Origin: Parcubacteria group bacterium CG11_big_fil_rev_8_21_14_0_20_39_14 | GTDB lineage: Bacteria; Patescibacteriota; Minisyncoccia; Minisyncoccales; GCA-002787255 | Assembly (NCBI GenBank): GCA_002787255.1 | Contig: PCWD01000056.1 | Span: 1-38,243, forward strand | Reading direction: 5' to 3' | DNA: 38,243 bases | Shown: positions 1 to 1,220 of the stretch, piece after piece | How positions within the stretch are numbered: position 1 is the stretch's first letter | Layout of the letters: every line of letters starts with the position of its first letter | Position numbers and translations under genes: made by a program | Notes under the pieces: model-generated | Seen by the model: the letters and a program-made list of their open reading frames with translations, nothing else | What the model was told of the DNA's origin: nothing | Database searches by the model: none

Positions 1-1220
1 AATCTCTTTATGTTTTCTTGCCCTTCCCTTATAAGCCCGTTTCTTAAATCTTCATCATCAATTATTTTATAAATTGCTTGGGCTATTTGTTCAATGTTTT
101 TTGGGTCAACCAATATTGCTCCTTTACCCGCCACCTCGGGCAGAGCCGAAACATTGGAAGTTATTACCGATGTCCCGGCTGCCTGAGCTTCCAAAATCGG
201 CATGCCAAATCCTTCATAAAATGAAGGGTAAACAAAAACTTGAGCGTTTTTTAGCAAATTCCACTTCTCCTCTTCCGAAATAAAATCTAAATTAACAATA
301 TCATTCTTGCGCTTTAATCCCTTGAGAATTTTATCAATTTTTTCTTCTTTGTAAAATCTCCGATTCGGTTTTCCGCCAGCCAAAATCAATTTGTGGGGAA
401 TTTTATATTTTTCTTTCAGAAGCTCAAATGCCTTAATCAATCCTGCTGTATTTTTCTTTTTTTCCTTTGTTCCCAAAAACAAAATGTAAGGCATCTGCGC
501 AAATCTGTGTTCGCATCTGTGCAAATCTGTGTGTATGCTTATTCCATGATGGATAACAGAAATTTTTTCGGGATTAACTCCGTACAGCATTACCAAATCG
601 TCTTTGGTGTTTTGTGAAACAGCAATAATTTTCTGAGCATTCTGGGCAGCATATTTTGTTACCCATCTTAAATATCGCTGATGAAAACCTGGATAAAACT
701 CGGGAAAATATTCAAATTCTAACCCATGAATTGTTACCACTGAATTTTTAGGATGGACTTTCGGCAAAACATGAGCCGGGATAAAAAGAACATCGGGTTT
801 ATAACAAAACATTTCAGGGGTTAATCCCATTTGTGTCCAAAAAATAGGAGCATATAATGTTTTTATAATAAAATTCTTTCCTTCCCTTTTTTCTAGGGAC
901 TCGGGAATGTGGCTTCTAAGACCGTCCTTAGGGGCGGCTTCGCCGAAGGCGAAGGCTGAACTCTCGCCAGGCAAAATTGCTTGGTCTTCCGCCAAGTCGG
1001 AAGAATTTTGCCGAGGACTGAACGAGCGAGCCGCTGGAAGCGAACGGGTGTGTCGAGGAAGCCACTTTCCGAGCCCAACCCCTCCTTTGACGTATAAAAA
1101 AAACTGATGCTCCAAAGATTCGGGAAGCATCGCTAAGTGATTTATAAGCTGATAAACGTATTCTTCCACCCCGGTTCGATTTTTTCTGAAAGCAGCTTGC
1201 GCGGCAATGCCAATCAGCAT
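1..1220 (-). CDS. Glycosyltransferase family 1 (GT4-type); C-terminus runs off the window start; carries an in-frame GC-rich insert
   Basis: Own minus-strand translation from the ATG at 1220 gives MLIGIAAQAAFRKNRTGVEEYVYQL... and ends ...VFVYPSFYEGFGMPILEAQAAGTSVITSNVSALPEVAG, a GT1 C-terminal EX7E-type signature. No stop occurs before position 1, so it is absent from the complete-ORF track. Confidence 0.8.
   Translation of the reverse strand, partial: MLIGIAAQAAFRKNRTGVEEYVYQLINHLAMLPESLEHQFFLYVKGGVGLGKWLPRHTRSLPAARSFSPRQNSSDLAEDQAILPGESSAFAFGEAAPKDGLRSHIPESLEKREGKNFIIKTLYAPIFWTQMGLTPEMFCYKPDVLFIPAHVLPKVHPKNSVVTIHGLEFEYFPEFYPGFHQRYLRWVTKYAAQNAQKIIAVSQNTKDDLVMLYGVNPEKISVIHHGISIHTDLHRCEHRFAQMPYILFLGTKEKKKNTAGLIKAFELLKEKYKIPHKLILAGGKPNRRFYKEEKIDKILKGLKRKNDIVNLDFISEEEKWNLLKNAQVFVYPSFYEGFGMPILEAQAAGTSVITSNVSALPEVAGKGAILVDPKNIEQIAQAIYKIIDDEDLRNGLIREGQENIKR
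893..1087. repeat. GC-rich palindromic element, copy E1, inside the GT1 CDS
   Basis: GC-rich island in an AT-rich gene. Terminal inverted repeats are ctcgggaatgtggcttc (900-916) and gaagccactttccgag (1058-1073). Nested hairpins: ggcaaaat/attttgcc (970-977/1005-1012) and cttccg/cggaag (986-991/998-1003). Homologous to 32889-33040. Confidence 0.75.

What the first reader, a model, noticed from the sequence alone, without database searches (positions are those of the whole stretch)
893..1087. GC-rich palindromic element sits in frame inside a GT1 glycosyltransferase gene
A ~190-bp GC-rich island interrupts an AT-rich gene.

- It has ~17-bp terminal inverted repeats (900-916 / 1058-1073) and nested internal hairpins.
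- My minus-strand translation runs through it without a stop. It adds about 60 residues (GVGLGKWLPRHTRSLPAARSFSPRQNSSDLAEDQAILPGESSAFAFGEAAPKDGLRSHIPES) between FFLYVKG and the rest of the N-terminal Rossmann half.
- A homologous copy (32889-33040) lies in the same plus-strand orientation inside a plus-strand gene. The element is therefore translated in opposite senses in the two hosts.
- This is the behaviour described for Rickettsia palindromic elements, which I am not aware of being described for this kind of genome.

Caveat: GC-rich DNA lacks stop codons in most frames. The track shows three other open frames across it, so openness alone does not prove selection.
Basis: partly seen in the sequence, partly recalled or inferred. 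Interest (0 to 1): 0.78.

Follow-up and report, generated by a model that had tools for sequence, protein, structure and literature searches.

The report
Structured palindromic element inside glycosyltransferase genes
A roughly 150-190-base GC-rich DNA element that folds into a conserved three-armed hairpin sits in frame inside two glycosyltransferase genes of an ultra-small groundwater (Parcubacteria/CPR) bacterium, behaving like the Rickettsia palindromic elements but keeping an RNA-like conserved core no catalogued family matches.

Summary
Window 896-1078 is a GC-rich (59%) palindromic element. It adds 63 codons to a family-4 glycosyltransferase (GT4) gene on the minus strand. A homologue at 32889-33038 (82% identical) adds about 50 codons to a plus-strand GT39/PMT_2 gene, so the two are translated in opposite senses.

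- **Absent from orthologues:** the closest orthologues of both genes lack the segments.
- **Not an assembly artefact:** 18-19 independently assembled contigs reproduce both genes with their inserts.
- **Tolerated in the protein:** AlphaFold places the GT4 insert as a disordered surface loop.
- **Copy number:** only two copies are in the window, not three.

I found nine more copies in other CPR contigs. Seven are intergenic and two are in frame in GT4 genes of related genomes. One relative has the window's filled site empty and the neighbouring gene filled, which indicates mobility.

Across the 11 copies the stems covary: 94% of cells are paired and 27 of 30 pairs show compensatory changes. A bulge (GCWUGGU) and a hairpin loop (YCGCUGG) stay invariant, and the sense strand folds better than the antisense strand. 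No Rfam family matches, and no transposase, target-site duplication or conserved peptide was found.

Best reading: a non-autonomous mobile element constrained as a folded single strand and tolerated in permissive protein loops. It works like a Rickettsia palindromic element (RPE) or MITE but is a new variant.

The parts
896..1078 (+). Element copy A, with the sense strand on the plus strand. It has a closing stem, a three-way junction and two arms, at 59% GC.
   Evidence: Fold gives -86.8 kcal/mol, z = -3.7. Covariance model R1, built without this copy, scores it 87.9 bits, E = 1e-20.
897..1085 (-). The 63-codon in-frame insert (residues 46-108, GGVGLGKW...HIPES) in the GT4 gene, read antisense to the element.
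   Evidence: Translation. It is absent from orthologues P0002-P0008. AlphaFold gives pLDDT of about 30 with no secondary structure for residues 48-103, while the GT-B core is confident at pTM 0.80.
896..922 (+). 5' arm of the closing stem (P0-P1-P1b).
   Evidence: It pairs with 1050-1076. Positions covary across copies.
1050..1076 (+). 3' arm of the closing stem, ending in the conserved motif TTTCCGAGCCC.
928..965 (+). Extra 38-nt hairpin found only in copy A. It shares the 13-mer TCGCCGAAGGCGA with the P3 hairpin of copy L023.
   Evidence: Alignment gap relative to all other copies. Coordinates.
979..985 (+). GCTTGGT bulge between P2 and P3. It is GCTTGGT in all 8 copies that carry the 20-mer core, and GCATGGT in the three more distant copies.
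1024..1047 (+). P4 hairpin with two tandem G.A motifs and the loop CGCTGGAA. It contains the 20-mer GAGCGAGCCGCTGGAAGCGA (1024-1043).
   Evidence: The single strain polymorphism in 1651 nt falls here (L035, GAGCGAACC).
1..1220 (-). Host gene 1, a GT4-family glycosyltransferase (Glyco_transf_4 plus Glycos_transf_1). The window cuts off its 3' end; the full length is 422 aa.
   Evidence: Pfam. Full-length P0001/P0241. MurA-MreB-GT synteny.
32889..33038 (+). Element copy B. It forms a roughly 50-codon in-frame insert (RGEGTW...RAPRF), read in the element's sense orientation.
   Evidence: R1 scores it 142 bits. Fold z = -4.2. Translation. Absent from orthologues P0122-P0128.
32934..32940 (+). GCTTGGT bulge of copy B.
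32978..33002 (+). P4 hairpin of copy B, containing the invariant core.
31614..33515 (+). Host gene 2, a GT39/PMT_2-family membrane glycosyltransferase of 633 aa. The insert lies in a variable loop between transmembrane segments.
   Evidence: Pfam PF13231. Orthologue alignment.

Best explanation
Copies A and B belong to a family of small, non-coding, non-autonomous mobile elements of CPR/Patescibacteria bacteria.

**Anatomy.** One strand of the element folds into a conserved three-way junction:
- a long closing stem made by the two ends;
- an arm P2-P3 carrying an invariant GCWUGGU bulge;
- an arm P4 ending in an invariant YCGCUGG loop.

**What is shown.**
- The fold is under purifying selection.
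- Copies sit in unrelated genomic contexts.
- Related genomes differ in which sites are occupied.
- Four copies sit in frame inside glycosyltransferase genes, in both orientations and in several phases.
- The inserted peptide occupies a variable, predicted-disordered surface loop.

**What is inferred.**
- The element spreads through its folded single-stranded form (RNA, or single-stranded DNA during replication), recognised by an enzyme encoded elsewhere.
- Insertions land anywhere. Inside genes, only those survive that have a length divisible by three, contain no stop codon, and fall in a permissive loop. The GC-rich subfamily of this lineage meets the no-stop condition relatively easily.
- The host ribosome then reads through, and the protein carries a passenger loop with no function of its own.

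This is RPE/MITE-like behaviour. The conservation pattern, however, is that of a structured nucleic acid rather than of transposase-bound terminal repeats.
For: **Insertion into genes.**
- The orthologues lack both inserts.
- The GT4 insert is a low-confidence loop in an otherwise confident GT-B model.

**Mobility.**
- Copies lie in unrelated contexts: pilC/pilin, ComM, PRTase/deaminase, GT4, RNase H and LemA.
- Occupancy is reciprocal between relatives. GT-1 is filled and GT-2 empty in the window's genome (L042). In the relative L040, GT-1 is empty and GT-2 filled, with a second, intergenic copy.
- A distant member lies in the same GT-1 loop of L039.
- The distribution is patchy. The 20-nt core occurs once each in only 2 of 185,579 species genomes, one Parcubacteria and one Saccharibacteria.

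**Structural constraint.**
- With 6 copies, 95.6% of cells pair and 18 of 30 pairs are compensatory, with 0 of 500 shuffles as high.
- With 11 copies, 94.1% pair and 27 of 30 are compensatory, against 31-48% paired in the slid controls.
- A and B differ by 18% yet keep P1, P2 and P3 through at least 5 double substitutions in P1 and P2 plus further changes in P3.
- The sense strand folds better than the antisense strand in 8 of 9 copies, with 36 versus 18 G.U pairs.

**No protein-level constraint.**
- The intragenic copies are read in sense once and antisense three times, and the antisense copies are in different phases at the 3' end.
- Searches of 5.8 billion and 1.84 billion proteins find no other protein carrying these peptides.
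Against: - No target-site duplication could be defined, because the loop sequences at empty and filled sites are not alignable.
- No transposase, integrase or reverse transcriptase lies in the window or in any locus next to a copy.
- The terminal repeats are not conserved in sequence between genomes, which is the opposite of classical MITEs.
- Copies within one genome are old: A and B are 82% identical, and L040a and L040b 63%. There is no sign of a recent burst.
- The whole-genome copy number is unknown. Only 2 copies were seen in about 42 kb, and 2 in 15 kb of a relative.
- All four intragenic hosts are glycosyltransferases. This may reflect targeting, or my sampling, since L039 and L040 were fetched through GT homologues.
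- An invariant core shared by Saccharibacteria and Parcubacteria may mean a host-beneficial RNA rather than a selfish element.
Confidence: 0.55

Rival explanations
1. The element is a genuine structured non-coding RNA gene with a cellular function, for example a protein-binding or catalytic RNA. It has been duplicated, and in this lineage it happens to be nested inside coding sequence. It is kept because the RNA is useful, not because it is selfish.
For: - The conservation pattern is typical of a functional RNA: covarying stems, invariant bulge and loop, and tandem G.A motifs.
- There is strand asymmetry.
- The core is identical between Saccharibacteria and Parcubacteria.
- Usually one exact-core copy occurs per genome.
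- The intragenic copies A and B retain the full structure despite 18% divergence.
Against: - The distribution is very patchy: 2 of 185,579 species genomes carry the exact core.
- There is no conserved gene neighbourhood.
- Occupancy of sites differs between close relatives.
- No Rfam family matches.
- No convincing promoter lies upstream of copy A in the sense orientation.
- This rival is not exclusive of mobility.
Confidence: 0.25
2. The element is an intervening sequence (a self-splicing or enzyme-processed intron) that is removed from the mRNA, so the proteins do not carry the extra residues.
For: The two ends are brought together by a long stem, as in many excised intervening sequences. 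CPR bacteria are known (from my own knowledge) for insertions in rRNA genes.
Against: - Three of the four intragenic copies are antisense to their host gene.
- All four are stop-free and a multiple of three in length, which splicing would not require.
- There is no group I or group II intron signal in Rfam.
- Seven copies are intergenic.
Confidence: 0.05
3. The segments are native, fast-evolving loop expansions of the two proteins (or assembly chimeras), not inserted elements.
For: Both positions are variable loops, and other orthologues carry unrelated extra sequence there.
Against: - The two segments are homologous at the DNA level but are read on opposite strands.
- The same DNA occurs intergenically in other genomes.
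- The nearest orthologues lack it.
- 18-19 independent contigs reproduce the genes with their inserts.
Confidence: 0.03

Closest known systems
Rickettsia palindromic elements (RPE; Ogata et al. 2000, as summarised in the MITE review PMC10969869)
   Same: - Both are palindromic elements of roughly 150 bp with no coding capacity of their own.
- Both are found intergenically and in frame inside unrelated protein genes of a small, AT-rich genome.
- In both, the insert sits where the protein fold tolerates it.
   Different: - According to the review, RPE families encode a conserved peptide. Here the copies are read in sense and antisense and in different phases, so no peptide is conserved.
- Far fewer copies are seen here.
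- There is a strongly conserved unpaired core with covarying stems across class-level host distances.
- The host is CPR, not Rickettsia.
- Sequence relatedness to RPE families was not tested.
Bacterial MITEs that are transcribed and fold as RNA, such as ERIC, Correia/NEMIS and Bacillus cereus bcr1 (the last three from my own knowledge; ERIC intragenic copies are cited in PMC10969869)
   Same: - Both are small and have terminal inverted repeats.
- Both lack a transposase and occur in scattered contexts.
- Both show occasional intragenic in-frame copies and form a stable hairpin in transcripts.
   Different: - No target-site duplication was found, and no cognate insertion sequence.
- Terminal-repeat sequence is not conserved between genomes while internal loops are.
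- Copies within a genome are old (63-82% identical).
Folded single-strand recombination substrates, such as integron attC sites and REP/RAYT or IS200/IS605 ends (from my own knowledge)
   Same: Structure is conserved more than sequence, there is strand asymmetry, and conserved unpaired bases lie within a long imperfect hairpin.
   Different: - The defining motifs are absent: there are no GTTRRRY/RYYYAAC boxes and no GTAG-plus-palindrome.
- No integrase, RAYT or TnpA gene lies nearby.
- The three-way junction architecture differs.
Rfam structured RNA families (release 15)
   Same: The element has a covariation-supported multi-helix fold with invariant loops, comparable in quality to curated families.
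   Different: No family matches at gathering score. No meaningful match appears at E up to 10 either.

Membership tests
Rickettsia palindromic elements (RPE) | Palindromic, non-coding repeat of roughly 100-150 bp | tested here: met
   Copies are 144-183 nt with a long closing stem. No frame is conserved across copies.
Rickettsia palindromic elements (RPE) | Frequent in-frame insertion into unrelated protein-coding genes | tested here: inconclusive
   Four of 11 known copies are in frame in genes, but all four hosts are glycosyltransferases. Two hosts were sampled through GT homologues. No other protein carrying these peptides exists in 5.8 billion or 1.84 billion proteins.
Rickettsia palindromic elements (RPE) | Each family contributes a conserved peptide (constant orientation and frame) | tested here: not met
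   Copy B is read in sense, while A, L039 and L040a are read antisense. At the 3' terminal motif the three antisense copies are in three different phases.
Rickettsia palindromic elements (RPE) | Sequence homology to RPE-1 to RPE-10 of Rickettsia | not tested
The host is a Parcubacteria (CPR) bacterium.
MITE (miniature inverted-repeat transposable element) | Small size with no transposase gene | tested here: met
MITE (miniature inverted-repeat transposable element) | Terminal inverted repeats | tested here: met
   896-922 pairs with 1050-1076. However, the repeats covary between genomes rather than being conserved in sequence.
MITE (miniature inverted-repeat transposable element) | Target-site duplication | tested here: inconclusive
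   No consistent direct repeat flanks the copies. Comparisons of empty and filled sites are not alignable within the variable loops.
MITE (miniature inverted-repeat transposable element) | Many copies per genome and a cognate autonomous insertion sequence with the same ends | tested here: inconclusive
   There are 2 copies in about 42 kb of this genome and 2 in 15 kb of a relative. The whole genome is not available. No transposase lies in the window or in flanking loci.
Structured non-coding RNA family | Secondary structure supported by compensatory substitutions | tested here: met
   Twenty-seven of 30 pairs have double changes and 94.1% of cells are paired, with 0 of 500 shuffles as high and slid controls at 31-48%. 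With the MAFFT alignment of 6 copies, 18 of 30 pairs are compensatory.
Structured non-coding RNA family | Expression as a discrete RNA from the sense strand | not testable with these tools
   No transcriptome data were available. The only indirect evidence is the sense/antisense folding asymmetry.
Structured non-coding RNA family | Match to a described Rfam family | tested here: not met
Self-splicing intron or intervening sequence | Sense orientation in the host transcript and a recognisable intron core | tested here: not met
   Three of four intragenic copies are antisense. There is no group I or group II match.

The most novel reading that the evidence does not exclude
The element may be a previously undescribed class of structured, mobile RNA of CPR bacteria. 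It would be a three-way-junction RNA with an invariant GCWUGGU bulge, an invariant YCGCUGG loop and tandem G.A motifs. It might be catalytic, or might serve as the recognition or guide module of an unknown mobility system. It would be able to reside and stay functional inside protein-coding sequence in either orientation, giving genuinely dual-use DNA.
Probability: 0.25. Interest if true: 0.85.

Novelty: new variant of a known kind. Interest (0 to 1): 0.62.

Why it matters
In-frame palindromic passengers in genes are best documented in Rickettsia. Finding the same behaviour in CPR/Patescibacteria would show that tiny, streamlined genomes of a very different lineage also tolerate such DNA inside enzymes. 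It would also show that variable loops of glycosyltransferases act as landing pads.

The element is conserved like a functional RNA across class-level distances, and it matches nothing in Rfam. That makes it a concrete, testable candidate for a new RNA class or a new mobility mechanism.

There is a practical consequence too. Such inserts inflate and confuse protein annotation in metagenome-assembled genomes: NCBI labels both host proteins as hypothetical.

Tried and rejected
**Known RNA families.** Rfam at gathering score over the window found only five tRNAs. At E up to 10 over two copies it gave only chance hits such as snoRNA and miRNA models. SRP RNA, 6S RNA, 5S rRNA, RNase P RNA, hammerhead, twister-type ribozymes and group II intron domain 5 were considered from memory. 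None fits the conserved motifs, and Rfam would have reported them.

**Diversity-generating retroelement repeats.** Rejected. A and B differ at all base types, the stems covary, and no reverse transcriptase is present.

**Third copy in the window.** None found. The other GC-rich islands are tRNAs and the conserved core of the GatA amidase.

**Peptide searches.**
- A six-frame concatenated query against 5.8 billion proteins returned only the two host proteins. The long synthetic query may have limited its sensitivity.
- The 63-aa insert against 1.84 billion representatives returned no hits.

**Other searches.**
- A viral contig scan for the 20-mer gave no hits.
- Of the 34 hits to the 20-mer in genomes and metagenomes, 27 were chance matches in GC-rich DNA, filtered out with nhmmer and the covariance model.
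- The promoter and terminator scan around both copies gave nothing above the shuffle expectation.

**Unresolved attempts.**
- Target-site duplication or microhomology: the native empty-site sequences (CTCGGGGAA antisense in L040 GT-1, GCGGGGGAAAA in L041) resemble the element's 5' end GCGAGGGAA. This is too weak to call.

**Literature.** No paper combines CPR names with palindromic elements or MITEs, and the core sequence string occurs in no held paper.
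Full report
**1. What is at the coordinates**

The window is an AT-rich (about 38% GC) contig of a Parcubacteria-group (CPR/Patescibacteria) bacterium. Its proteins are identical to NCBI PIQ92007.1 and PIQ92036.1, both on a 38,243-bp contig. 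The left end carries MurA (2570-3832, minus strand), MreB (1362-2369, minus) and a GT4 glycosyltransferase. The GT4 gene starts at the ATG at 1220 and runs off the window.

Inside that gene, GC jumps to 0.587 at 901-1050, against 0.33-0.37 on either side. The stretch 896-1078 folds into a long closing stem (896-922 with 1050-1076) that encloses internal hairpins. The fold gives -86.8 kcal/mol, z = -3.7, and no shuffle of 200 is as stable.

The insert is residues 46-108 (897-1085, 189 nt).

**2. The second copy, and no third**

The stretch 32889-33038 is homologous: nhmmer E = 1e-16, 82% identity over aligned columns. It lies in the same plus-strand orientation. There it sits inside the plus-strand ORF 31614-33515, a GT39/PMT_2 membrane glycosyltransferase. 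So the element really is translated on opposite strands in the two hosts.

No third copy was found with nhmmer, blastn, or a covariance model with speed filters on or off. Copy A carries an extra 38-nt hairpin (928-965) that no other copy has.

**3. Insertions, not native domains or artefacts**

*GT4 gene.*
- The best 120 homologues are mostly 335-390 aa, against 422 aa for this protein.
- The nearest homologues (P0002-P0008, 57-72% identical) lack the segment. They go straight from FFLY[VANT]K to the [FL]P.NF motif.
- Fetched contigs confirm these are positional orthologues in a MurA-MreB-GT arrangement.

*GT39 gene.* Orthologues at 56-73% identity are about 580 aa, against 633 aa. They lack about 50 residues in a variable loop between membrane segments.

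*Structure.* An AlphaFold model of the GT4 protein has a confident GT-B core (pTM 0.80). The only long low-confidence, structure-free stretch is residues 48-103, between strand 39-45 and the next elements.

*Assembly.*
- An independently assembled 1805-bp contig from another sample matches 1651 nt with one mismatch.
- The identical 422-aa protein is encoded on 19 contigs from several projects.
- The 633-aa protein is on 18 contigs.

**4. The family beyond the window**

The 20-mer GAGCGAGCCGCTGGAAGCGA is identical in A and B, so I scanned the collections with it.
- In 185,579 species genomes it gave two true copies after filtering. One is in a Parcubacteria MAG (L014) and one, diverged, in a Saccharibacteria MAG (L002).
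- In the metagenome collection it gave five true loci: L021 and L023 (identical to each other), L025, L030 and L033.
- In viral contigs it gave none.
- All other hits were chance matches in GC-rich DNA.

These copies are intergenic and lie in unrelated neighbourhoods: pilC/pilin, downstream of ComM, PRTase/deaminase, upstream of GT4 genes, upstream of RNase H, and next to LemA.

**5. Structure and covariation**

The copies share one architecture.
- A closing stem, P0-P1-P1b. In several copies P0 contains a tandem G.A motif.
- A three-way junction.
- A short helix (UCC/GGA).
- P2, then an invariant 7-nt bulge GCUUGGU, then a variable hairpin P3.
- A hairpin P4 built as GA-GC-GA-GC, loop CGCUGGAA, GC-GA-GC-GA.

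*Covariation on a MAFFT alignment of six copies.* Here 95.6% of cells pair, against 80% in shuffles. Eighteen of 30 pairs show double changes, with 0 of 500 shuffles as high. Sliding the partners drops pairing to 26-48%.

*Independent test.* A covariance model built from those six copies, without copy A, recovers copy A at 88 bits.

*More distant members.* With filters off, the model also recovers three further copies (L039, L040a, L040b).

*Covariation on the 11-copy alignment.* Here 94.1% of cells pair and 27 of 30 pairs are compensatory, with 0 of 500 shuffles as high and slid controls at 31-48%. This alignment is model-fitted and therefore leans towards the structure.

*A compared with B.* They differ by 18% yet keep their helices. 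In P1, U-A/C-G becomes C-G/U-A. P2 has three double changes, and P3 is re-registered.

*Strand asymmetry.* The sense strand folds better than its complement in 8 of 9 copies and has twice as many G.U pairs, 36 against 18. The constraint therefore acts on one strand as a single strand, either RNA or single-stranded DNA.

*Known families.* No Rfam family matches.

**6. More in-frame copies and evidence of mobility**

*L039.* The GT4 orthologue P0009 (GCA_030640805.1, same synteny) carries a GC-rich palindromic insert of about 150 nt.
- It sits in the same loop, just after FFLYID, and is antisense like copy A.
- It has the same architecture, with bulge GCAUGGU and a P4 loop UCGCUGG on an ordinary helix.
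- It scores 45.5 bits in sense against 7.4 bits in antisense.

*L040.* This is the contig of the closest orthologue with a long record (P0005).
- Its GT-1 site is empty.
- The next GT4 gene (ORF 5676-6923, 415 aa, against 371-383 aa in orthologues) carries an in-frame antisense copy in the interdomain linker (6245-6402).
- A second copy lies intergenically at 14647-14799.

*The window's own genome.* A longer contig of the same organism (L042) shows that its GT-2 is 383 aa and empty.

Occupancy is therefore reciprocal between two related genomes. Their GT-1 proteins are about 68% identical and their GT-2 proteins 78%. This is what mobility predicts.

A neighbour-joining tree puts P0001 with the empty P0002-P0005, and P0009 at the base of the empty P0006-P0011 clade. 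The shared GT-1 site therefore needs either two gains or one gain and two losses, and I cannot decide between these.

**7. No protein-level meaning**

Copy B is read in sense. Copies A, L039 and L040a are read antisense.
- At the conserved 3' motif the three antisense copies are in three different phases: G|CTC|GG, |GCT|CGG| and GC|GAG|G.
- At the central bulge they share a phase, giving DQA, NHA and DHA. With three copies, that agreement has a chance probability of about 0.11.

Intergenic copies carry stops in nearly all frames. At the composition of A and B, a given frame is stop-free with probability of about 0.10-0.12, against about 0.04 at host composition. Copy A has three open frames (P = 0.03) and copy B two.

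Searching 5.8 billion proteins with all six frames, and 1.84 billion representatives with the 63-aa insert, found only the two host proteins or nothing.

The simplest reading is a selection filter. Inside genes, only insertions that are a multiple of three in length, stop-free and in a permissive loop persist, and the GC-rich subfamily passes that filter more easily. The intergenic copies L023 and L040b are also GC-rich (53-58%), so GC-richness is not a consequence of being in a gene.

**8. Mechanism: what is shown and what is inferred**

*Shown.*
- The inserts are real and in frame.
- They are absent from the orthologues.
- The fold is structurally constrained, with strand asymmetry.
- Site occupancy varies between relatives.
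- No peptide is conserved.

*Inferred.*
- The element is mobilised in trans through its folded single-stranded form.
- The invariant bulge and loop are recognition sites. Both contain GC(N)UGG, which suggests one binding protein.
- The host reads through the insert.

*Against a classical MITE.*
- There is no target-site duplication.
- There is no transposase in 38 kb or in any flanking locus.
- The terminal sequences are not conserved.
- The copies are old.

I put 0.55 on a selfish mobile structured element and 0.25 on a host-useful RNA gene, which could still be mobile. The intron and native-loop or artefact readings each get 0.05 or less.

**9. Comparison with known elements, and novelty**

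In-frame fusion of intragenic MITEs with host ORFs is known. It is extreme in Rickettsia RPEs, where according to the review each RPE encodes a conserved peptide (PMC10969869).

The present element works like an RPE, but it fails the conserved-peptide feature and was not tested for sequence relatedness. I therefore do not file it as an RPE.

I found no paper in the held library linking CPR bacteria with MITEs or palindromic elements, and none containing the core sequence. I rate it a new variant of a known kind. One open possibility, at about 0.25, is that it is a new class of structured RNA.

**10. Context worth knowing**

The same protein loops collect other repeats in frame.
- Small palindromes occur in P0014 and P0039.
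- Simple AAATCC-type repeats occur in the GT-2 linker of this genome and in GatA of the window.
- Unrelated inserts occur in P0075, P0077, P0089 and P0108.

Tolerance of in-frame repeat DNA in variable loops therefore looks general in these genomes.

Noticed in passing
window 7575-7605 (inside GatA ORF 6860-8338, minus strand): The simple repeat ggattttggattttggattttgg lies in frame in a variable linker of the amidase GatA, giving the peptide ...ESKIQNPKSPAPEP... It resembles the AT-rich simple repeats that fill intergenic spacers of this contig.
   Followed up: partly
window 491-540 (inside the GT4 gene, interdomain linker): An imperfect tandem repeat, catctgcgcaaatctgtgt / tcgcatctgtgcaaatctgtgtgt, encodes the linker peptide IHTDLHRCEHRFAQM. 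Orthologues have unrelated sequence of similar length there.
   Followed up: no
window 24825-24913 and 27281-27370: This is a second repeat family of about 90 nt, 87% identical, lying intergenically. It has a GC-rich hairpin CCCGCCAAGGCGGG flanked by AT-rich simple repeats. It shares the 10-mer GCAGGCAAAT and a P3-like hairpin with the main element.
   Followed up: partly
window 12945-13085 and 20740-20880: A 141-nt inverted repeat, 95% complementary, brackets the 7.6-kb type IV pilus gene block (three pilins, PilD, PilC, PilB, PilT). This could be an invertible or duplicated regulatory segment.
   Followed up: no
window 17080-17176 and 20337-20433: A 97-nt direct repeat, 91% identical, covers the start and upstream region of PilC and of PilT. 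It looks like a duplicated promoter or 5' region.
   Followed up: no
L037 10001-11149 (GT4 orthologue P0014, Candidatus Portnoybacteria) and P0039: Three in-frame inserts give the recurring peptides GTVP, GQSL and LS[LR][KR]DSP. These are consistent with one short palindrome (about AGGGACAGTCCCT) read in several frames and both orientations within one gene.
   Followed up: partly
L042 11828-12979 (GT-2 of the window's own genome, just beyond the window's left end): The interdomain linker contains an in-frame simple repeat (AAATCCTAAATCCCAAATCCTAAATCC, peptide KNPKSQILNPKIQ). This is exactly where the relative L040 carries the structured element.
   Followed up: partly
L035 (position corresponding to window 1030): The only difference in 1651 nt between two assemblies of this organism is G to A in the invariant P4 core (GAGCGAGCC to GAGCGAACC). 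It breaks a G-C pair and changes Ala to Val in the insert peptide.
   Followed up: partly
window 38151-38243: A tandem 6- and 12-nt repeat (GGAGTT)n at the right edge lies inside a long minus-strand ORF that continues beyond the window.
   Followed up: no
L040 GT-1 empty site and L041 GT39 empty site: Native sequence at both empty sites resembles the element's 5' end GCGAGGGAA. L040 GT-1 has TTCCCCGAG, whose antisense is CTCGGGGAA, and L041 has CTGCGGGGGAAAA. This could be microhomology or a target preference, or it could be chance.
   Followed up: partly
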